A DNA stretch of 32,000 nt from positions 5,460,001-5,492,000 of the forward strand of contig NZ_CP042911.1 in NCBI RefSeq assembly GCF_008065095.1, written 5' to 3'. Positions within the stretch are counted from its first letter, which is position 1; each line of letters begins with the position of its first letter. Source of the stretch: Gemmata obscuriglobus. GTDB lineage: Bacteria; Planctomycetota; Planctomycetia; Gemmatales; Gemmataceae. Shown piece by piece: positions 9,575 through 32,000 of this stretch. A program made the position numbers and the translations under genes. Under the pieces are notes generated by a model. The model ran no database searches. It saw only the letters and a program-made list of their open reading frames with translations, and had not been told where the DNA came from.

Positions 9575-9784
9575 TCAGTACTCGCACCGGATGCGGATCC
9601 GTTCCCCACAGGTGCAAGTTACCTCTAGCGCCTGGATCAGGTCGCCCTCGCGGACGACCCGCACCGTCGGCTCGTGGCCCCCGCCCGTCGGGGCGGGGGC
9701 GCCGATCCGAACCGGCTCCCCCGTGACCCGAACGCGGGCGGCCCGCACGACCGGGCCGCCGCCCCCGGCTGGTCCCTCGTCCAT
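9575..9784 (-). CDS. Small hypothetical protein (69 aa), Gly-rich N-terminus, C-terminal ...EVTCTCGERIRIRCEY
   Basis: ATG at 9784 with AGGAGG 6 nt upstream. It is co-directional with flgL (120 nt upstream) and the lipoprotein gene (37 nt downstream). I recognise no family. Confidence 0.45.
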   Translation of the reverse strand: MDEGPAGGGGPVVRAARVRVTGEPVRIGAPAPTGGGHEPTVRVVREGDLIQALEVTCTCGERIRIRCEY

Positions 9785-25777: not shown

Positions 25778-28372
25778 ATGTCCCGCATGATGCAGCAGTA
25801 CCACGACGCGAAGAACCAGCACCCGGGCATGATCGTCCTGTTCCGCAACGGCGACTTCTACGAACTGTTCGAGGACGACGCGGAACTGGGGTCGCGGGTG
25901 CTCGGCATCACGCTCACCAAGCGCGACGGCTCGATCCCGATGGCCGGGGTGCCGGTCCACAAGCTCGAACACTACCTCGGGCTGCTGCTCCGGGCCGGCC
26001 ACCGCGTCGCGGTGTGCGAGCAGATGGAGGACCCGGACCCCAAGAAGAAGATCATCCACCGCGAGGTGAACCGGATCGTCACCCCCGGTACGGTGACCGA
26101 CGACGGGTTGCTCGACCCCCGCGCGCCGAACCATCTTGTTGCCGTTGCGCCCGGCAAGCCCGGGTTCTTTGGCCTCGCGTGGGTGGATCTCTCCACCGGC
26201 CATTTTGCGGCTACCGACGTTCCGGCGCCGCGCCTCCAAGACGAACTGTCCCGGCTAAGTGCCGTCGAGTGCCTGTACGCCGAAGGGCTGACGAACGCCG
26301 TCTCGCAGGCGGCGGGCACGTACCTGCCGAAGAGTCGCGTGGCCCGTCCGGACTGGACGTTCGACCCGGCTACCGCGCTGGCGGCGCTCAAAACGCATTT
26401 CGCGGTCGGCACGCTCACCGGCTTCGGCTTCGACGACGCACAGTCATGCCTCGTCGCTGCGGGTGCGGTCGTGATCTACCTTCAGGAAACGCTCAAGGCG
26501 AGCCTCCAACACATCCGCCGGCTGCGCCCGCACCGCCCCGATGCCCTGCTCACCCTCGACGAGGTCACCCGGCGCAGCCTGGAGCTGACCCGCACCCTGC
26601 GCGACAACCAGCGCGACGGCTCCCTGCTCTCGGTGCTCGACCGGACCGTCACCCCGATGGGCGCCCGGCTCCTGCACGACAGCGTTCTGGCCCCCCTCAC
26701 GGACGCGACCGCAATCAGCGCCCGCCTTGATGCGGTGGAAGAACTTCTGAAGGATCACGCGCTCCGGCAGTCCGTGCGCGACCAGCTCGACGCGTGCTCC
26801 GACATGCAGCGCCTCACCACGCGCGTATCCACGGCGAAGGCGGGGCCGCGCGACCTGGCCGCGATCGCCCGCACCCTGCGCCACCTCCCCGCGGTGAAGG
26901 CCAAGCTCACCGGCCGGCGGTCGAAGCTGCTGCAAGACCTCGAAAAGCGACTCGAGCTGTGCCCCGACATCCGCGAGTTGCTGGATAAGGCGATTGAGGA
27001 CGATCCGCCGCACATCGCCAAAGAGGGCGGCGTGATCCGCCCCGGGTTCAGCGCCGAACTCGACGAGCTTCGCGCCCTCACCACAGACGGGAAGAACTGG
27101 ATCGCCCGCTACCAGGCGCAGGAGATCACACGCACGGGCATCGGCAGCCTGAAGGTCGGCTACAACGAGATCGACGGCTACTACCTCGAAATCACCAACG
27201 CGAACGAGACGAAAACGCCGCCGGAGTACAAGCACCAGAAGACGCTCAAGAACGCGAAGCGGTACTACACGCCGGCCCTCCGCGAGTACGAGGAGAAGGT
27301 CGTCACCGCGCAGGACAAGAGCCGCGCGCTGGAACTCCAGCTCTTCGTGACGCTGCGGGACCAAGTCGCGGTCCAGACGCCGCGGTTGCTGAACACCGCA
27401 GAGGTGCTCGCGGCGCTCGACATGCTGGCGGCGCTGGCGGAACTGGCGGCGGCTCGGAACTACGTGCGCCCGGCGTTCGTGGAGGAACCCGTTCTCGACA
27501 TTCGGGACGGCCGGCACCCGGTTCTTGACCAGATCCTGCCGCCTGGCACGTTCGTGCCCAACGACGTCGCGTTCGGCCCCGACGACGGCATGTTCTGGCT
27601 CGTCACCGGGCCGAACATGGCCGGCAAATCGACGTTCCTACGCCAGGCGGCGCTCATCACCTTGATGGCGCACGTCGGGAGCTTCGTACCCGCGAAGAGC
27701 GCGAAGGTGGGGCTGACCGACCGCATCTTCACCCGCGTCGGCGCGAGCGACGAGTTGAGCCGCGGGCAGTCCACGTTCATGGTGGAAATGACCGAAGCCG
27801 CCAACATCCTGAACAACGCGACGGCGCGGAGCCTGGTCATTCTCGACGAGATCGGCCGCGGGACGAGTACATACGACGGCGTTTCGCTGGCGTGGGCGAT
27901 GACCGAGTACCTGCACGACACGCTCGCGTGCCGCACACTGTTCGCGACGCACTACCACGAACTGGCTCAGCTCGCGGCGTCGCTGCCCCGGCTCCGGAAC
28001 TACAACGTGCTGGTGCGCGAGCTGGCCGACGAGATCGTCTTCTTGCACAAGATCGCGCCGGGGAACGCGGAGCGCAGCTACGGCATCCACGTCGCGCGGC
28101 TGGCGGGAGTTCCGGGGAGCGTACTCGCCCGCGCGACCGCCGTGCTCGGAACGCTGGAGAAAGGCCACGACCTGTCGAACGTGCCGGCAGCGCCCGTCGC
28201 CGCGCCCGATGTGACGAGACCTATCCCCCTACCGACCCCGGCGACACCGCCGCGGATCGAGCCGCCGAAGCCGAAGATCGTTCAGCCGCCCGAGGCGCCG
28301 CGGCGCAAGTCCAAGCCCCAAGCGGCGACCGGCCCGAGCCTGTTCGGGGACGGCGACGACGTGCCGTTCTGA
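25778..28372 (+). CDS. mutS: DNA mismatch repair protein MutS
   Basis: N-terminus MSRMMQQYHDAKNQHPGMIVLFRNGDFYELFEDDA (mismatch-binding domain, F-Y-E motif). Walker A GPNMAGKST. Also STFMVEMTE and ILDEIGRGTSTYDG motifs. The C-terminal tail is Pro-rich. Confidence 0.97.
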   Translation: MSRMMQQYHDAKNQHPGMIVLFRNGDFYELFEDDAELGSRVLGITLTKRDGSIPMAGVPVHKLEHYLGLLLRAGHRVAVCEQMEDPDPKKKIIHREVNRIVTPGTVTDDGLLDPRAPNHLVAVAPGKPGFFGLAWVDLSTGHFAATDVPAPRLQDELSRLSAVECLYAEGLTNAVSQAAGTYLPKSRVARPDWTFDPATALAALKTHFAVGTLTGFGFDDAQSCLVAAGAVVIYLQETLKASLQHIRRLRPHRPDALLTLDEVTRRSLELTRTLRDNQRDGSLLSVLDRTVTPMGARLLHDSVLAPLTDATAISARLDAVEELLKDHALRQSVRDQLDACSDMQRLTTRVSTAKAGPRDLAAIARTLRHLPAVKAKLTGRRSKLLQDLEKRLELCPDIRELLDKAIEDDPPHIAKEGGVIRPGFSAELDELRALTTDGKNWIARYQAQEITRTGIGSLKVGYNEIDGYYLEITNANETKTPPEYKHQKTLKNAKRYYTPALREYEEKVVTAQDKSRALELQLFVTLRDQVAVQTPRLLNTAEVLAALDMLAALAELAAARNYVRPAFVEEPVLDIRDGRHPVLDQILPPGTFVPNDVAFGPDDGMFWLVTGPNMAGKSTFLRQAALITLMAHVGSFVPAKSAKVGLTDRIFTRVGASDELSRGQSTFMVEMTEAANILNNATARSLVILDEIGRGTSTYDGVSLAWAMTEYLHDTLACRTLFATHYHELAQLAASLPRLRNYNVLVRELADEIVFLHKIAPGNAERSYGIHVARLAGVPGSVLARATAVLGTLEKGHDLSNVPAAPVAAPDVTRPIPLPTPATPPRIEPPKPKIVQPPEAPRRKSKPQAATGPSLFGDGDDVPF

Positions 28373-28437
28373 TCGGCGCCGTGAGCGGCGAACCGGTGTC
28401 CAGTTGTGATTGACAACGATGGTGCCGGTATCACACA

Positions 28438-28647
28438 ATGCCGCCTCAGCCCGATCCTGTGTTCGGAGGATGGCCGGTGCGCGTTTCTCTGCTCCCACTG
28501 GTTGTACTTACAGTGGCGCCAGTCTTCGCGGGAGATCGACCCGAACCGAAGTACGAGGGGAAGCCGCTCGCCTACTGGGTGGCGCAATTTCAAAAGGGTG
28601 TAACCGGCCGGGCTCTCGCGGAAAGCAACGTTTTCAAGAGTCTTTAG
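28438..28647 (+). CDS. Small ORF (69 aa) with a signal-peptide-like N-terminus; possibly a truncated remnant of a larger secreted repeat protein
   Basis: MPPQPDPVFGGWPVRVSLLPLVVLTVAPVFAGDRPEPKYEGKPLAYWVAQFQKG... stops abruptly where G+C content drops. I have no homology evidence for it. Confidence 0.3.
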   Translation: MPPQPDPVFGGWPVRVSLLPLVVLTVAPVFAGDRPEPKYEGKPLAYWVAQFQKGVTGRALAESNVFKSL

Positions 28648-28755
28648 GGCGTGTGGACAGTTACCGTAGCAAGATCATAATGGATGCAATGTGAACGAAT
28701 GCGAGGGAGTTGCGCGCGGTTTTGTCGTACCGTGTCGCAACCCGTCGGTATTGTT

Positions 28756-28790
28756 TGGCCTTAGTACTACTCCGTTACTTCGCCACAACT
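28756..28790. repeat. Left arm of a ~35-bp imperfect inverted repeat
   Basis: The core CTTAGTACTACTCCGTTACTTCGCCACAACT (28760-28790) pairs with 29004-29034 with 2 mismatches in 31. The pairing extends 3 more bp after one mismatch. Confidence 0.8.
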
Positions 28791-28956
28791 AATTAAATTG
28801 TCGCGATTTATGGCGAGCTACACCTACAGGTCCGTGCCCCCGCAATGGGTTCAAATCCCAGCGATTCTGGCTAGTCCGTTCACGAGAGCAGCAAACATTC
28901 CGCCTTGGCAGTGAGCATTCCATTTGACTCAAGTCCAGATCCTACAAGATGTTCCG

Positions 28957-29256
28957 TCAAGGTGCATTCCAGAGGCGTGTGCATAACACGTCGTAAAATA
29001 AGCAGTTGTGGCGAGGTAACGGAGTAGTATTAAGCCCAGAGAATTCGTCCTCGGGGTAAAACAACTTCGATGATTGCTTGAGTCGCTGGCGAAACTCGCC
29101 GGTTGCCGACGCAAGTGCCTCCTTGAAGTTCTCGGCAAGTGCGGCATCAAGGAAGTGAGTTGCCACCTCTCGTACCCACAGCTCTTCGAGTTCCCGGTTC
29201 TCGCGAACGTTCGGAACCGCCACCAGTACGACGACCGCACAAGCTACGACATACAC
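28957..29256 (-). CDS. Hypothetical small membrane-anchored protein (99 aa); candidate gene cassette downstream of attC-like site 1
   Basis: GTG start at 29256 with GGGAGGG 7 nt upstream, 17 nt after the GCCGAAC/GTTCGGC core at 29273-29279. N-terminal TM helix (YVVACAVVVLVAV). G+C is visibly lower (~50% by eye) than the surrounding genome. The C-terminus runs into the inverted-repeat arm, so the 3' end is uncertain. Confidence 0.4.
   Translation of the reverse strand: MYVVACAVVVLVAVPNVRENRELEELWVREVATHFLDAALAENFKEALASATGEFRQRLKQSSKLFYPEDEFSGLNTTPLPRHNCLFYDVLCTRLWNAP
29004..29038. repeat. Right arm of the ~35-bp imperfect inverted repeat
   Basis: AGTTGTGGCGAGGTAACGGAGTAGTATTAAG (29004-29034) is the reverse complement of the left arm, apart from the 2 core mismatches noted for the left arm, and lies 213 bp from it. 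It falls inside the 3' part of the 28957..29256 ORF. Confidence 0.8.
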
Positions 29257-29272
29257 CCTGGCGCCCTCCCTG

Positions 29273-29363
29273 GCCGAACGTAAAGCTCACCTGCACCGCC
29301 ATCACACGATGAGCGGTGCGTCCCGAATCCGCGGGCGGTGTCAGGTGCAGCGCCGGGTTCGGC
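29273..29363 (-). other. attC-like site 1
   Basis: GCCGAAC-gtaaa-GCTCACCTGCACCGCC-(33 nt)-GGCGGTGTCAGGTGCAGC-gccgg-GTTCGGC. The 7-bp outer boxes are exact reverse complements. The 5-nt spacers are non-complementary. The inner stem has two unpaired bases (T, C) on the + strand 3' arm. Confidence 0.55.
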
Positions 29364-29818
29364 TCACTGACCTCCGCGGTTCCGGGCGACACGCGCCGCA
29401 CCGCGGCTCCGCGGAGCCCGTGCCACCGGTGCGGCCGGGCGGAGCACCCCCAACCCGATGCGCCGTGTCGCGACACATCGGAGGCCACCCACCACCGCCA
29501 CCCGCGGCGATGAGCCGCGCCCGCCACCCACGGGCGCCACGCGGAGCACCACCGACACGAACCGCCGTGTCCCCACCCGCGCCCGGCCACGCCCAACCAC
29601 ACCTCGCGGCGGCGAGCCGCGCCAGACCCGATCGGCACCACGCGGAGCGCCACCGAACCGACACGCCGTGTCCGCACCCGCCACCGGCCGCGCCCACCGC
29701 ACCTCGCGGCGACGAGCCGCGCCACACACCCACGGGCACCACGCGGAGCCCGACCCTCGGGATTCACCTTCGCGGACCACACGCCCACCGCCGCACGCGC
29801 GATCGAGCAACTCGGGTG

Positions 29819-29908
29819 GCCGAACAAATAGCTCACCTGCACCGCCAGGATGAAGTGCGCATGACAACGGTGGCCGATGGCGGTGTCAGGTGCAGCGCCG
29901 GGTTCGGC
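29819..29908 (-). other. attC-like site 2 (loop class B)
   Basis: GCCGAAC-aaata-GCTCACCTGCACCGCC-(32 nt: aggatgaagtgcgcatgacaacggtggccgat)-GGCGGTGTCAGGTGCAGC-gccgg-GTTCGGC. Confidence 0.55.
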
Positions 29909-30244
29909 TCGCTCACGTCCGCGCCGCGCATCCGCGGATGCCCGCGCCACCGATGCGGCCACGCGGAGCACCGCCGACCCGGAGCACCGTGTCGCCGCAC
30001 GTCGGAGGCCACCCACCACCCCCACTCGCGGCGACGAGCCGCGCCGACCACCGACCGGTGTTGGCGGAGCGCAACCGACCCGAACCGCCGTATCCCCACC
30101 CGCCGCCCGCCACGCCCAACCGCACCTCGCGGCGGTGAGCCGCGCCAGCGACCACCGGCACCACGCGGAGCCCGACCCGCGGGCGTCACCCACGCGGACC
30201 ACACGCACACCGCCACCGCACGCGCGCTCCAGAACGCGAGGGTG

Positions 30245-30335
30245 ACCGAACATAAAGCTCACCTGCACCGCCCCCTCCCAGGGAGCGATGCGTCACAAAC
30301 TCGCGGGCGGTGTCAGGTGCAGCGCCGGGTTCGGC
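30245..30335 (-). other. attC-like site 3
   Basis: ACCGAAC-ataaa-GCTCACCTGCACCGCC-(33 nt)-GGCGGTGTCAGGTGCAGC-gccgg-GTTCGGC. The outer box has one substitution (A for G). Confidence 0.5.
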
Positions 30336-30693
30336 TCGATGCCCTCGGCGGTTCCGAGGTGGCACGCTCAGCATCGCGGCTCCGCGGAAGCCCGCCCACC
30401 GTCGCGGCCGAGCGGAGCACCACCGACCCACCCGCCGTGTCCCGGCCCATTGGAGGCTGGCACCAACCGCACCTGGCGGCGACGAGCCGCGCCAACCACC
30501 AGCGGGCGCCACGCGGAGCACCACCGACCCGAACCACCGTGTCCCCACGCGCCGCCGGCCACGCGCACCCGCACCTCGCGGCGGCGAGCCGCGCCAGACA
30601 CGACCGGCACCCCGCGGAACCCGACACAAGGGTTTCACCACCGCGGACCACACGCCTCGCACCGCCGCACGCGCACTCATGCACGCGATGGTT

Positions 30694-30784
30694 GCCGAAC
30701 GAACAGCTCACCTGCACCGCCATCATACCGTCAGCGGTGCGTCACAAACCCGATGGCGGTGTCAGGTGCAGCGCCGGGTTCGGC
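30694..30784 (-). other. attC-like site 4
   Basis: GCCGAAC-gaaca-GCTCACCTGCACCGCC-(33 nt)-GGCGGTGTCAGGTGCAGC-gccgg-GTTCGGC. Confidence 0.55.
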
Positions 30785-31143
30785 TCGCTCACGTCCGCGG
30801 GTCCGGGGCACACGCCGAGCGCTGCGCATCCGCGGAAGCCCGCCCACCGGTGCGGCCACGCGGAGCACCGCCGACCCGGAGCACCGTGTCGCGACACATC
30901 GGAGGCCACCCACCCACCGCCACCCGCGGCGATGAGCCGCGCCCGCAACCGATCGGTCTCGGCGGAGCACTACCGACCCGAACCGCCGTGTCCCCACCCG
31001 CACCCCGGCCACGCCCAACCGCACCTCGCGGCGGTGAGCCGCGCCCGCGACCACCGGCACCACGCGGAGCCCGATGCGCGGGGGTCACCGTCGCGGACCA
31101 CACGCCCAGCTCCGCCGCACGCGCATTCATGCACGCTCGGGTT

Positions 31144-31235
31144 GCCGAACATACAGCTCACCTGCACCGCCATCATCGGATGAGCGGTGCGTCGCAATAT
31201 CGCATGGCGGTGTCAGGTGCAGCGCCGGGTTCGGC
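31144..31235 (-). other. attC-like site 5
   Basis: GCCGAAC-ataca-GCTCACCTGCACCGCC-(34 nt)-GGCGGTGTCAGGTGCAGC-gccgg-GTTCGGC. Confidence 0.55.
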
Positions 31236-31590
31236 TCGCTGACCTCGGCGGTTCCGGGGCACGCGCCCCGCGCCGCGCGTCCGCGGAGCCCGCGGCACCG
31301 GTGCGGCTCTGCGGAGCAGCACCGACCCGACGCGCCGTGTCGCGGCCCACTGGAGGCCACCCACCACCGCCCCTCGCGGCGATGAGCCGCGCCAGCCCCG
31401 ACCCGTATCAGCGAAGCCAACACCGATACGCACTATCGTGTCCCCATGCACCGCTGGCCATGCCCAACCGCACCTCGCGGCGGCGAGCCGCGCCCGCCAC
31501 AGACCGGCACCACGCGGAGCACCACACGCGCCGTTCACCCACGCGGACCACACGCCTACCGCCGCACGCGCACCCCGCGCCCTTCTGGTG

Positions 31591-31680
31591 GCCGAACAAT
31601 GAGCTCACCTGCACCGCCTGGGTGACGTGAGCACCACAACTATGGCCGATGGCGGTGTCAGGTGCAGCGCCGGGTTCGGC
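31591..31680 (-). other. attC-like site 6 (loop class B)
   Basis: GCCGAAC-aatga-GCTCACCTGCACCGCC-(32 nt: tgggtgacgtgagcaccacaactatggccgat)-GGCGGTGTCAGGTGCAGC-gccgg-GTTCGGC. It lies 8 nt downstream (minus strand) of the stop of the 31689..>32000 ORF. Confidence 0.55.
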
Positions 31681-31688
31681 CTCGGCCC

Positions 31689-32000
31689 TCACGCGATCAA
31701 CCGGTGCCGTTGGCTCACTATCTGCTCGAACACAGACCAGCCATGCCCCTCGACGAGTCGGGTGAGCGCCTCGGCCGATGTCCGCACGGGATCATAGCGG
31801 ACCTGGACCCACACCACGGTGTACACGCCTCCTGTGACGGCCGCCAACTTGTCCCCATCGCACAGTTCGTCCGCCAACTGGCCACGGCTCTTAATGACCG
31901 TCAGAGAGTACCGAACAGCGTCGCCGTGGGACTCGGCGAACGCTGCGAACAGGAACTCAGCCCCGGCGAGGCTCGCAGCGAGGTCGCCAAGGTTCCGAAC
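31689..32000 (-). CDS. Hypothetical protein, 5'-partial (open to the window edge); candidate cassette ORF preceding attC-like site 6
   Basis: I translated the minus-strand frame by hand and it stays open from 32000 to the stop at 31689: ...VRNLGDLAASLAGAEFLFAAFAESHGDAVRYSLTVIKSRGQLADELCDGDKLAAVTGGVYTVVWVQVRYDPVRTSAEALTRLVEGHGWSVFEQIVSQRHRLIA. The composition looks coding and is unlike the repeat array. I recognise no family, and the C-terminus is not that of a tyrosine recombinase. Confidence 0.5.
   Translation of the reverse strand, partial: VRNLGDLAASLAGAEFLFAAFAESHGDAVRYSLTVIKSRGQLADELCDGDKLAAVTGGVYTVVWVQVRYDPVRTSAEALTRLVEGHGWSVFEQIVSQRHRLIA

What the first reader, a model, noticed from the sequence alone, without database searches (positions are those of the whole stretch)
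29364..31590. The five cassettes between the attC-like sites are paralogues with no conserved reading frame and look like a structured non-coding module
Normal integron arrays have similar attC sites but unrelated cassettes. Here the five inter-site units (about 455, 336, 358, 359 and 355 bp) are clearly homologous to each other. Shared blocks include GTTCGGCTCGCTCACGTCCGCG at the start, and CGCGGACCACACGC...CCGCCGCACGCGC near the end.
Their differences include many non-3n indels, so the same DNA block is read in different frames in different copies:
- On the minus strand, GDTAVRVG in one unit corresponds to GTRWFGSVVLRV in another.
- On the + strand, RCQVQRRVRL corresponds to GGVRCSAGFGSL.
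Every frame gives Arg/Pro/Gly/Ala junk.
Each unit is built from two ~101-bp sub-repeats (three in the first unit). Each sub-repeat contains an invariant stem CGCGGC/GCCGCG closing a pentaloop G-[A/G]-[T/C/G]-G-A. Eleven copies:
- 29503-29519
- 29605-29621
- 29705-29721
- 30027-30043
- 30128-30144
- ~30475-30491 (one stem change)
- 30577-30593
- 30925-30941
- 31027-31043
- 31375-31391
- 31476-31492
An invariant stem with a variable loop suggests selection on RNA or ssDNA structure, or on a protein-binding site, rather than on a protein product.
Basis: seen in the sequence. Interest (0 to 1): 0.8.

Follow-up and report, generated by a model that had tools for sequence, protein, structure and literature searches.

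The report
Amplified gene-less integron cassettes, Gemmata
The five repeats are copies of a non-coding integron cassette that fills about 40% of the sampled cassette arrays of Gemmata obscuriglobus and always carries the same small DNA/RNA hairpin; such gene-less cassette families are known from Vibrio, but this GC-rich, hairpin-bearing type is new and its role is untested.

Summary
Six attC sites bound five homologous cassettes (455, 336, 358, 359 and 355 bp). Each cassette holds two or three ~101-bp modules, and all 11 CGCGGC-GRYGA-GCCGCG hairpins sit at the stated coordinates. The window is Gemmata obscuriglobus CP025958.1.

The family extends well beyond the window:
- It makes up 30 of 69 delimited cassettes in three arrays of this genome.
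- It also occurs in G. algarum and in a Gemmata MAG.

The cassettes are non-coding. Only 11% of indels are multiples of three, there is no period-3 signal, and no Pfam or protein homologue was found.

Copies are old paralogues (median identity 79%) and mix across species. Even so, the hairpin is exact in 92 of 95 sites, and its loop varies only purine/pyrimidine. That indicates selection on short sequence blocks.

The "structured RNA" reading is not established:
- No Rfam match.
- Only one convincingly covarying pair.
- Folding energy is near that of shuffled sequence.
- The folding strand cannot be assigned.

Paralogous gene-less cassettes are already known from Vibrio arrays. This family differs in being GC-rich, strongly strand-skewed (C/G 1.65 on the bottom strand) and lacking sigma-70-like promoter matches.

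My best guess, which is inferred, is a cis-acting, strand-asymmetric transcription/RNA-end signal within the array. A selfish, highly mobile cassette is the main rival.

The parts
29273..29363 (-). attC site 1, the last attC of the array on the mutS side. The top strand is the window's - strand; the + strand is the recombinogenic bottom strand.
   Evidence: Pattern matches. ssDNA fold -28.5 kcal/mol, z = -4.3, with two single-base bulges in the 3' arm of the + strand. No attC lies to its left in the window.
29819..29908 (-). attC site 2
30245..30335 (-). attC site 3
30694..30784 (-). attC site 4
31144..31235 (-). attC site 5
31591..31680 (-). attC site 6. To its right lies a different cassette with an ORF on the - strand that runs off the window.
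29364..29818 (-). Gene-less cassette C1 (455 bp, three ~101-bp modules)
29909..30244 (-). Gene-less cassette C2 (336 bp, two modules, short-leader subfamily). It is 95% identical to a copy in a second array 260 kb away.
30336..30693 (-). Gene-less cassette C3 (358 bp, two modules)
30785..31143 (-). Gene-less cassette C4 (359 bp, two modules)
31236..31590 (-). Gene-less cassette C5 (355 bp, two modules)
29503..29519 (.). Invariant hairpin CGCGGC-GATGA-GCCGCG (C1, module 1)
   Evidence: The DNA fold of the motif is -8.8 kcal/mol.
29605..29621 (.). Invariant hairpin, loop GGCGA (C1, module 2)
29705..29721 (.). Invariant hairpin, loop GACGA (C1, module 3)
30027..30043 (.). Invariant hairpin, loop GACGA (C2)
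30128..30144 (.). Invariant hairpin, loop GGTGA (C2)
30475..30491 (.). Hairpin with a terminal-pair mismatch (GGCGGC-GACGA-GCCGCG) (C3)
30577..30593 (.). Invariant hairpin, loop GGCGA (C3)
30925..30941 (.). Invariant hairpin, loop GATGA (C4)
31027..31043 (.). Invariant hairpin, loop GGTGA (C4)
31375..31391 (.). Invariant hairpin, loop GATGA (C5)
31476..31492 (.). Invariant hairpin, loop GGCGA (C5)
29467..29485 (+). Candidate small hairpin of module 1 (GTC-G-CGR-NNNN-YCG-GA-GGC). Homologous sites are at 29991-30009, 30439-30457, 30888-30906 and 31339-31357. It is the only helix with a compensatory pair.
   Evidence: A3 columns 114/119: GC 24, GU 7, AU 5, AC 0. Support is weak.
29772..29800 (.). 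Conserved tail blocks GCGGACCACACGC ... CCGCACGCGC. The same blocks occur at 30194-30225, 30643-30674, 31093-31124 and 31543-31571.
   Evidence: GCGGACCACACGC occurs 5 times in the array and 0 times in the other 29 kb.
29408..29415 (.). Conserved leader palindrome TCCGCGGA. It also occurs at 29931, 30381, 30829 and 31280.

Best explanation
**What it is (high confidence, about 0.85).**
- The five units are members of one family of gene-less (non-coding) integron gene cassettes.
- Each is bounded by attC sites and is therefore movable and duplicable by an integron integrase.
- The family has been amplified to roughly 40% of the cassettes in at least three attC arrays of Gemmata obscuriglobus, and it is shared with other Gemmata.
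- Each cassette has four parts: a short leader with the palindrome TCCGCGGA; two or three tandem ~101-bp modules; one invariant 6-bp-stem, G-R-Y-G-A-loop hairpin per module, alongside short conserved blocks (GCGGAGC, ACCGAC, CCGTGTC, GGCCAC); and a conserved tail (GCGGACCACACGC...CCGCACGCGC).
- Selection acts on these short blocks as sequence-specific recognition elements, not on a protein and not on a large RNA fold.

**How it most likely works (inferred, about 0.3).** I propose a cis-acting, strand-asymmetric transcription/RNA-end element of the array.
- On the sense strand (window -) the transcript is G-rich and C-poor. Such untranslated RNA is a poor Rho substrate, so transcription can pass to downstream cassettes.
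- On the antisense strand (window +) the transcript is C-rich and G-poor, with C>G in 99% of 78-nt windows, and it is little structured apart from the small hairpins. That is the composition of Rho-utilisation sites.
- Antisense or read-in transcription, for example from mutS, which points into this end of the array, would therefore be terminated.
- The stable hairpins would then act as protein-recognition or 3'-end-protecting structures.

Shown: the anatomy, the non-coding status, the amplification, the conservation pattern and the composition. Inferred: transcription, Rho involvement and what binds the hairpin.
For: **Cassette identity.**
- attC sites have conserved arms, a variable centre and extrahelical bases.
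- Neighbouring cassettes each carry one small ORF on the opposite (-) strand.

**Non-coding status.**

**Amplification and spread.**
- 13/17, 9/24 and 8/28 delimited cassettes belong to the family in three loci of CP025958.1.
- The family occurs with the same attC type in G. algarum JC673 and Gemmata MAG SMAG_U3706.

**Old paralogues under selection.**
- Median identity is 0.79.
- The best within-genome identity (0.78-0.88) is about equal to the best cross-species identity (0.79-0.86).
- All three leader subfamilies are shared by G. obscuriglobus and G. algarum.
- The hairpin is exact in 92 of 95 sites.
- Loop positions 2 and 3 are purine/pyrimidine in 93 of 95 sites (2 sites have GCTGA), although family-wide transversions outnumber transitions 770:463.

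**Strand asymmetry.**
- + strand composition is A .158, C .462, G .300, T .079.
- Median C/G is 1.65 on + and 0.61 on -, against 1.17 and 0.86 for other cassettes.
- GC is 0.74-0.78, against 0.58-0.73 for coding cassettes.

**Other points.**
- No sigma-70-like promoter or intrinsic terminator lies in the cassettes.
- mutS (25778-28372, +) points into the array end that carries five consecutive copies.
- Literature precedent: gene-less cassettes act on transcription of neighbouring cassettes (PMC11014356) and show purifying selection and paralogy (PMC1382264).
Against: - No expression data exist for either strand, so the Rho and insulator steps rest on composition alone.
- The same G+T excess on the sense strand could be a mutational footprint of transcription or replication on unconstrained DNA.
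- In Vibrio gene-less cassettes, Rho inhibition by bicyclomycin had no effect on reporter output (PMC11014356).
- The model does not require the strict invariance of the hairpin sequence or the other conserved blocks. These point to an unidentified specific binding partner.
- Family copies also sit deep inside arrays and in long runs, which an end-insulator role alone does not explain.
- No integrase gene was found in the 63 kb examined, so current mobility is unproven.
Confidence: 0.5

Rival explanations
1. Selfish, highly mobile cassette. The conserved elements act on the single-stranded bottom (+) strand during integrase-mediated excision and re-insertion. A short, C-rich, poorly self-pairing insert would leave the flanking attC hairpins free to fold. 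The small, very stable mini-hairpins would be recognised by the integrase or a host ssDNA factor. The cassette would then copy itself through the arrays without benefit to the host.
For: - The family reaches 43% of delimited cassettes in three arrays.
- Two-cassette block duplications are 100% identical, and a 95% pair links arrays 260 kb apart.
- The cassettes are short (330-460 bp).
- The + strand is the recombinogenic bottom strand.
- The few stem variants are G.T on the + strand (2 sites) and never A.C.
- Boucher et al. proposed 'selfish element' for the Vibrio non-coding families (PMC1382264).
Against: - Most copies are old (median identity 79%) and none of the five window copies exceeds 88% identity to another, so there has been no recent burst here.
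- No integrase lies near any of the three arrays examined.
- There is no known role for internal cassette hairpins in attC recombination.
- The strand assignment rests on 2-3 variant sites, and the unbiased wobble test shows no strand bias.
Confidence: 0.2
2. One reading: each cassette encodes a stand-alone structured or protein-sequestering small RNA. The modular RNA would display 2-3 identical hairpins that titrate an RNA-binding protein, like the CsrB/RsmZ or ToxI repeat RNAs.
For: - A repeated identical hairpin sits in an otherwise weakly structured, modular sequence.
- The loop is constrained to G-R-Y-G-A. On the + strand this resembles GNRA-like pentaloops such as phage boxB (from memory, not tested).
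- One compensatory pair has G.U intermediates only on the + strand.
- An integron-borne sRNA is known in Xanthomonas (from my own knowledge).
Against: - No Rfam hit.
- Covariation is no better than shuffles for pairs and pair types.
- Folding z-scores are near zero.
- No promoter or terminator matches.
- GGA (CsrA-type) motifs are not clearly enriched on a rough composition estimate (about 5 expected, 6-7 seen; no formal count).
- No partner gene lies in the cassettes.
- More than 30 diverged copies per genome is unusual for a trans-acting RNA.
Confidence: 0.15
3. Promoter cassette, as shown for most Vibrio gene-less cassettes. The cassette would supply a sense-strand promoter that re-starts transcription of downstream cassettes far from Pc.
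For: - Most gene-less cassettes tested in Vibrio SCIs, and ORF-less cassettes from the oral metagenome, have promoter activity (PMC11014356; PMC6557892).
- The family is interspersed among coding cassettes.
- Those authors note that promoters in such cassettes cannot be predicted in silico.
Against: - No sigma-70-like -35/-10 match lies inside any of the five cassettes.
- At 74-78% GC, with 8% A on the sense strand, an AT-rich -10 element is almost impossible. The Vibrio promoter cassettes are AT-rich.
- Long runs of 4-5 consecutive copies are not expected for a promoter.
- An alternative (ECF-type) sigma promoter cannot be excluded.
Confidence: 0.1
4. Plain decaying tandem duplication, or pseudogenised copies of a former gene, with no function.
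For: - The copies show many frameshifting indels and about 20% divergence.
- The arrangement is tandem, and some recent block duplications exist.
Against: - Divergence is very uneven: 17-nt and 7-13-nt islands stay invariant while spacers change and shift by 1-nt indels.
- The same subfamilies persist in different species.
- The copies are separated by intact, identical attC arms.
- No translated frame resembles any protein.
- GC is above the genome level, the opposite of what I would expect for decaying DNA (a general expectation, not tested here).
Confidence: 0.05

Closest known systems
Paralogous non-coding cassette families of Vibrio chromosomal integrons (Boucher et al. 2006, PMC1382264)
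   Same: - The cassettes are attC-bounded and have no ORF and no BLASTX-type homologue.
- They are highly paralogous within an array (45 copies in V. vulnificus CMCP6).
- Close homologues are found only in related species.
- Identity between paralogues and across species is about 80-90%, which the authors interpreted as purifying selection.
- The same open question applies: selfish or useful.
   Different: - The phylum is different (Planctomycetota).
- The cassettes are GC-rich rather than AT-rich.
- They have an internal tandem 101-bp module architecture.
- A perfectly invariant hairpin recurs 2-3 times per cassette.
- The strand composition skew is extreme.
- There is no sequence similarity to the Vibrio families; none was looked for or expected.
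Gene-less/ORF-less promoter cassettes (Blanco et al. 2024, PMC11014356; Tansirichaiya et al. 2019, PMC6557892)
   Same: They are gene-less cassettes interspersed in large arrays, with a proposed cis role in transcription of neighbouring cassettes.
   Different: - Those cassettes were shown experimentally to carry promoters and are AT-rich.
- Here no sigma-70-like match exists, and the base composition (8% A on the sense strand) argues against a classical promoter.
- Nothing has been tested experimentally for the Gemmata family.
REP/BIME-type repeated extragenic palindromes
   Same: Both are short GC-rich hairpins whose sequence, not just their pairing, is conserved in many copies in one genome. 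Both are thought to be recognised by specific proteins and to stabilise or punctuate transcripts.
   Different: - REPs are dispersed between genes genome-wide and spread by RAYT transposases.
- This hairpin is found only inside one cassette family: 1 near-match in the other 29 kb of the window against 11 in 2.3 kb.
- It is embedded in a longer conserved module.
Phage lambda nutR/tR1 region (rutA-boxB-rutB) - functional analogy only, recalled from memory
   Same: On the + strand, a C-rich, G-poor, weakly structured sequence flanks a short GC stem closed by a G-N-N-G/A-A pentaloop.
   Different: - There is no sequence homology and no N-like protein.
- No evidence of transcription or of Rho dependence exists.
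- The loop's third base is a pyrimidine.
- The hairpin repeats at 101-nt intervals.

Membership tests
Integron gene cassette array (attC-bounded cassettes) | Inverse core sites R'' (RYYYAAC) and R' (GTTRRRY) at the two ends of each recombination site | tested here: met
   GCCGAAC ... GTTCGGC at all six sites. Each box departs from the textbook consensus at one position (G for Y, C for R), and the two departures remain complementary.
Integron gene cassette array (attC-bounded cassettes) | Imperfect palindrome of about 57-141 nt that folds as a single strand into a hairpin, with extrahelical bases on one arm and a variable central part | tested here: met
   The sites are 90-92 nt. The ssDNA fold is -28.5 kcal/mol, z = -4.3, with two single-base bulges on the 3' arm of the + strand. 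The arms are invariant and the centre is variable.
Integron gene cassette array (attC-bounded cassettes) | Sites spaced by one short, usually promoterless gene, all in one orientation | tested here: met
   Non-family cassettes of 242-723 bp each hold one ORF on the strand opposite to the window's + strand, including SMI1_KNR4, SUKH_6 and DUF families.
Integron gene cassette array (attC-bounded cassettes) | Adjacent integron integrase (intI, tyrosine recombinase) and attI (a complete integron, as opposed to an integrase-less attC cluster) | tested here: inconclusive
   No gene with a recombinase Pfam hit is among the called genes of L001, L109 or L110. However, all three arrays run off the fetched DNA at one end.
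Gene-less (non-coding) cassettes of chromosomal integrons | No conserved ORF, no codon-type substitution pattern and no protein homologue | tested here: met
   10.7% of indels are 3n; period-3 power is 0.19x the mean. The protein search gave 0 hits or only 3 ORF calls from the same genome. Pfam gave 0 hits.
Gene-less (non-coding) cassettes of chromosomal integrons | Frequent paralogy in the array, with close homologues only in related species | tested here: met
   30 of 69 cassettes in G. obscuriglobus belong to the family. It also occurs in G. algarum and a Gemmata MAG. None was found in 97 metagenome or 40 viral candidate loci.
Gene-less promoter cassettes (Vibrio type) | AT-rich sequence relative to the genome | tested here: not met
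   GC is 0.74-0.78, against 0.61-0.75 in 1-kb windows across the window and 0.58-0.73 for coding cassettes.
Gene-less promoter cassettes (Vibrio type) | [quoted passage not shown] | not testable with these tools
   The consensus scan finds no sigma-70-like site inside the cassettes, but such scans are not evidence, and Gemmata promoters are poorly known.
Structured non-coding RNA family (Rfam type) | Match to a curated covariance model | tested here: not met
   No hit at gathering score in the window. At E<=10 in 29200-31750 the only hit is a chance miRNA match on an attC site.
Structured non-coding RNA family (Rfam type) | Helices supported by compensatory changes | tested here: inconclusive
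   In 37 copies, 3 of 42 pairs have double changes against 2.3 in shuffles (191/500 shuffles reach this). The covariation score is 0.102 against 0.095 (5/500), which is within the tool's stated false-positive range. One pair is convincing (GC 24, GU 7, AU 5). The two main hairpins never vary.
Structured non-coding RNA family (Rfam type) | Folding energy clearly below shuffled sequence | tested here: not met
   Mean z is -0.90 (+ strand) and -0.30 (- strand) over 22 copies. For C4 alone z is +1.2 and +1.7.
Rho-utilisation (rut)-like terminator region | C-rich, G-poor stretch of about 80 nt | tested here: met
   On the + strand, median C/G is 1.65, with C>G in 99% and C/G>1.3 in 87% of 78-nt windows. 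On the - strand the figures are 1% and 0%.
Rho-utilisation (rut)-like terminator region | Transcription of that strand and Rho-dependent 3' ends | not testable with these tools
   No expression data are available. In Vibrio cassettes bicyclomycin had no effect (PMC11014356).
Protein-coding cassette | One frame conserved across homologues with purifying selection | tested here: not met
   The long + strand ORFs (up to 624 aa across four cassettes and attC sites) follow from 7.9% T.

The most novel reading that the evidence does not exclude
The 101-bp modules are docking sites for a dedicated, still unknown Gemmata protein that reads the invariant CGCGGC-GRYGA-GCCGCG hairpin on single-stranded nucleic acid (bottom-strand DNA or antisense RNA). 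Through it the cassette would control either its own integrase-mediated copying or the direction and extent of transcription through the array. That would be a new class of integron 'accessory' cassette: a non-coding, self-amplifying regulatory module rather than a passenger gene or a promoter.
Probability: 0.15. Interest if true: 0.75.

Novelty: new variant of a known kind. Interest (0 to 1): 0.45.

Why it matters
Large chromosomal integrons are seen as gene banks, yet a sizeable part of them is gene-less DNA. The only tested role so far is promoter activity of AT-rich cassettes in Vibrio.

Here a single gene-less family occupies about two fifths of the sampled cassettes in a planctomycete. 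It is GC-rich and strongly strand-asymmetric. It keeps a 17-nt hairpin unchanged across species while the rest drifts.

This gives a sharply defined, mutable element for asking what non-coding cassettes do:
- transcription polarity control,
- RNA-end formation,
- ssDNA handling during recombination, or
- pure selfish spread.

It also shows that such families are not a Vibrio peculiarity.

On the practical side, the family explains why Gemmata assemblies break into many ~0.3-0.9-kb contigs, as in G. algarum JC673. It also explains why gene callers emit Arg/Gly/Pro-rich 'hypothetical proteins' here (for example C1280_14925).

Tried and rejected
**Coding potential: rejected.**
- Indel lengths, period-3 signal, start-codon conservation and stop counts.
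- Pfam.
- Two searches of the 5.8-billion-protein set.

**Rfam at gathering score and at E<=10:** nothing.

**Global RNA structure: not conserved.**
- alifold on 5, 22 and 37 copies and on 59 modules, both strands.
- The consensus MFE pairs are broken in 11-18% of cells.

**Mutual information:** dominated by subfamily signal and uninformative.

**Pairing of the variable loop bases with the upstream CAYYGG block:** the contingency table is not significant.

**Strand assignment by wobble asymmetry:** G.T 103 vs A.C 123, so no bias.

**G-quadruplexes on the G-rich strand: rejected.** G3+ runs are depleted (8-15 against 17-21 in shuffles) and canonical motifs are at chance level.

**CsrA-type GGA sponge: dropped.** By a rough hand estimate from base composition, GGA is at about the expected frequency (about 5 expected, 6-7 seen per cassette). 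No formal count was made.

**Sigma-70 promoters and intrinsic terminators:** none in the cassettes.

**Wider distribution.**
- The metagenome scan with a relaxed double-hairpin pattern gave 97 loci, all chance.
- The viral scan gave 40 loci, all chance.
- The Limibaculum hit is an unrelated 30-bp tandem repeat.

**Literature search for Gemmata integrons:** nothing specific.

**The tRNA-like fragment left of the array:** not confirmed by ARAGORN or Rfam.


Full report
**1. The observation**

Reading 28800-32000 shows six near-identical ~91-nt imperfect palindromes.
- Their 5' arms (GCCGAAC-N5-GCTCACCTGCACCGCC) and 3' arms (GGCGGTGTCAGGTGCAGCGCCGGGTTCGGC) each occur six times and never in shuffles.
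- They align with invariant arms and a variable centre.
- As single-stranded DNA they fold far better than shuffles (-28.5 kcal/mol, z = -4.3), with two single-base bulges on one arm.

These are the features of integron attC sites.

The five intervals between them measure 455, 336, 358, 359 and 355 bp, exactly as reported, and are homologous throughout. Tandem Repeats Finder gives period 449, 3.9 copies, 78% matches. Inside the units it gives a period of 101.

All eleven CGCGGC-GNNGA-GCCGCG hairpins are at the stated positions. The rest of the 32-kb window holds one 1-mismatch match, against 0.18 expected.

Minor corrections:
- The third loop base is only T or C.
- The 'start block' begins with the attC R' box.

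**2. Where it is and which way it reads**

MutS of the window is encoded on Gemmata obscuriglobus CP025958.1 (GCA_003149495.1). Window position equals L001 position plus 15777.

The extrahelical bases lie in the 3' arm on the + strand. By comparison with canonical attC sites (established knowledge), this makes the + strand the recombinogenic bottom strand. In agreement, the protein-coding cassettes of these arrays carry their ORFs on the opposite strand.

The cassettes therefore read right to left. attC1 (29273-29363) is the last site of the array, with no further site to its left. The five units are the terminal cassettes next to mutS, which points into the array.

**3. The family is much larger than the window**

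The array continues for at least 6.7 kb past the window end, and 13 of its 17 delimited cassettes belong to the same family.

A protein-database search with a spurious ORF call from cassette C1 returned only three G. obscuriglobus 'hypothetical proteins'. Two of them led to two further arrays of the same attC type:
- 2.79 Mb (L109, 28 attC sites, 9 of 24 delimited cassettes).
- 0.40-0.42 Mb (L110, 32 attC sites, 8 of 28 delimited cassettes).

Together, 30 of 69 cassettes belong to the family.

An exact double-hairpin scan of one genome per species found the family only in two other genomes, always between the same attC sites and interspersed with coding cassettes:
- Gemmata algarum JC673, where it shatters the assembly into short contigs.
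- Gemmata MAG SMAG_U3706, with one copy among the 14 delimited cassettes.

A Limibaculum hit is an unrelated 30-bp repeat. The 97 metagenome and 40 viral candidates are all chance matches.

**4. Not protein-coding**

- Among 18 two-module copies, 630 of 917 pairwise indels are single bases and only 10.7% are multiples of three.
- Column variability has no period-3 component (0.19 x mean power).
- No frame is stop-free in all copies.
- The ATG present in some copies is not conserved.
- The module period (100-102 bp) is itself not a multiple of three.
- Pfam finds nothing in the longest ORFs of either strand.
- A search of 5.8 billion proteins finds no relative.

The long + strand ORFs, one of 624 codons crossing four cassettes and four attC sites, are explained by 7.9% T on that strand.

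**5. Conservation pattern**

With 39 two-module copies, identity ranges from 0.69 to 1.00 with a median of 0.79. Two identical pairs are recent two-cassette block duplications. Window cassette C2 is 95% identical to a copy in the 2.79-Mb array.

Otherwise a copy's best match within its genome (0.78-0.88) is no better than its best match in another species (0.79-0.86). All three leader subfamilies occur in both G. obscuriglobus and G. algarum. The copies are therefore old paralogues, not a decaying recent tandem duplication.

Against this background the hairpin is exact in 92 of 95 sites.
- The three exceptions are one terminal mismatch and two C-to-T changes that give G.T on the + strand.
- The loops are GATGA 34, GACGA 27, GGTGA 17, GGCGA 14, GCTGA 2 and GGTGG 1.
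- Family-wide, transversions outnumber transitions 770:463. The purine/pyrimidine restriction of loop positions 2 and 3 is therefore a constraint, not a mutational bias.

Other short blocks are also nearly invariant, while the spacers between them vary and shift by single bases. These blocks are GCGGAGC, ACCGAC, CCGTGTC, GGCCAC, the leader palindrome TCCGCGGA, and the tail GCGGACCACACGC...CCGCACGCGC.

This is the signature of several short sequence-specific recognition elements.

**6. Is it a structured RNA?**

The evidence is thin.
- Rfam gives nothing.
- Folding energies are close to shuffles. C4 has z = +1.2 and +1.7. Over 22 copies the mean z is -0.90 on + and -0.30 on -.
- Consensus folds of 5, 22 and 37 copies and of 59 modules agree only on small local hairpins.
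- For the 42 local pairs proposed on 37 copies, 3 pairs show double changes against 2.3 in shuffles (191/500). The covariation score is 0.102 against 0.095 (5/500), which the tool itself rates as within the false-positive range for related sequences.
- The one convincing case is a 3-bp inner helix in module 1 (GC 24, GU 7, AU 5, never AC).
- A strand-neutral test on Watson-Crick helices of the consensus shows no wobble asymmetry (G.T 103, A.C 123) and 11% broken cells.

The invariant hairpins are real and stable (-8.8 kcal/mol as DNA). Because they never vary, they say nothing about structure versus sequence. Their strict sequence invariance argues for sequence read-out.

**7. Composition**

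- The family is more GC-rich (0.74-0.78) than the coding cassettes (0.58-0.73) and most of the surrounding chromosome (0.61-0.75 in 1-kb windows).
- It is strongly skewed: C .462, G .300, A .158, T .079 on the + strand.
- C exceeds G in 99% of 78-nt windows on + and in 1% on -. Other cassettes show the same direction but much more weakly.
- G-runs are depleted on the G-rich strand, so G-quadruplexes are not the point.
- No sigma-70-like promoter or intrinsic terminator matches fall inside the cassettes.

**8. Interpretation**

Firmly: this is a family of gene-less integron cassettes under purifying selection on short nucleic-acid motifs, amplified within Gemmata attC arrays.

For the mechanism I commit, at about 0.3, to a cis-acting, strand-asymmetric transcription element.
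- The sense RNA is G-rich and C-poor, so it is a poor Rho substrate despite being untranslated.
- The antisense RNA has the composition of a Rho-utilisation site punctuated by stable hairpins that could bind a factor or protect 3' ends.
- Five copies cap the array end into which mutS reads.

All of this beyond the composition is inference. The skew could equally be a mutational footprint. Rho inhibition had no effect on Vibrio gene-less cassettes (PMC11014356).

The main rival (about 0.2) is a selfish, highly mobile cassette whose hairpins act on the bottom-strand ssDNA.

The remaining rivals rank lower, for the reasons given under each:
- a trans-acting or protein-sponge RNA (0.15),
- a promoter cassette (0.1),
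- junk duplication (0.05).

**9. Comparison with what is known**

Boucher et al. (PMC1382264) described Vibrio arrays in these terms:
- 6-49% of cassettes are non-coding.
- These cassettes 'tend to be paralogous', with a family of 45 copies in V. vulnificus.
- They are conserved at 84-89% between species.
- They have homologues only in related species.
- They are either selfish or useful to the integron.

Blanco et al. (PMC11014356) showed sense-strand promoter activity for most gene-less Vibrio cassettes tested.

The Gemmata family meets the defining features of a gene-less paralogous cassette family. It differs in five ways: phylum, high GC, extreme skew, tandem 101-bp module architecture and the invariant hairpin. 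It fails the AT-rich feature of the promoter type.

I found no paper describing Gemmata integron cassettes. I therefore rate it a new variant of a known kind, of moderate interest.

Noticed in passing
window 28839-28872 (+), within the low-GC stretch 28400-29270: GGGTTCAAATCCCAGCGATTCTGGC resembles the T-arm plus 3' acceptor half of a tRNA. It sits in a ~0.9-kb low-GC segment between mutS and the last attC. This may be a relic attachment site of an integrated element, but ARAGORN and Rfam (E<=10) report nothing.
   Followed up: partly
window 28957-29256 (-): A 99-aa ORF starts 17 nt beyond the last attC in cassette orientation, with markedly lower GC and no Pfam hit. No attC follows it, so it may be a cassette whose attC was lost or a flank gene.
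   Followed up: partly
window 29309-31183 (+): A 624-codon ORF runs through four cassettes and four attC sites and reads the same hairpin in two different frames. It is an artefact of the T-poor strand. Gene callers have emitted similar 'hypothetical proteins' here (for example C1280_14925, 78 aa, at 29364-29600 on the - strand).
   Followed up: yes
L109 (CP025958.1 2,786,894-2,807,091) and L110 (404,305-424,601): Two further attC arrays of the same type (28 and 32 sites in 20 kb each) lie far from the window's array. None has a recombinase Pfam hit among its called genes. G. obscuriglobus therefore has several large arrays, possibly integrase-less clusters. A DDE transposase sits inside the L109 array.
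   Followed up: partly
L109 reverse-complement coordinates 8769/9618; L110 reverse-complement coordinates 8996/9973; L001 14132 (= window 29909-30244) vs L109 rc 9194: Two pairs of 100%-identical family cassettes lie two cassettes apart, which indicates recent block duplications. A 95%-identical pair links arrays 260 kb apart, which indicates cassette exchange between arrays.
   Followed up: partly
L001 21850-22293, L109 3893-4297 and 17275-17718: Several coding cassettes encode SMI1_KNR4/SUKH-type proteins (immunity proteins of polymorphic toxin systems). Others carry DUF6985, DUF4274 and DUF3108-like domains.
   Followed up: no
L011 6742-6908 (Limibaculum sediminis NZ_JAMFKN010000001.1): Six tandem 30-bp repeats each contain CGCGGCGCTGAGCCGCG (two copies with one mismatch), directly after an ORF. 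They are unrelated to the Gemmata family and matched the search pattern by chance.
   Followed up: yes
window 1-25700 / L001 1-9656: A flagellar gene cluster (flgA, rod proteins, fliS, fliD, flagellin) lies just upstream of mutS (L001 1-6872), and tRNA-Pro(CGG) is at 9691-9767 (-). The array thus abuts ordinary core chromosome on this side.
   Followed up: no
L002, L004, L005, L007, L008, L010 (G. algarum JC673 contigs of 300-940 bp): These short contigs each consist of one family cassette plus attC fragments. The repeat family evidently breaks short-read assemblies, so its copy number in draft Gemmata genomes is underestimated.
   Followed up: no
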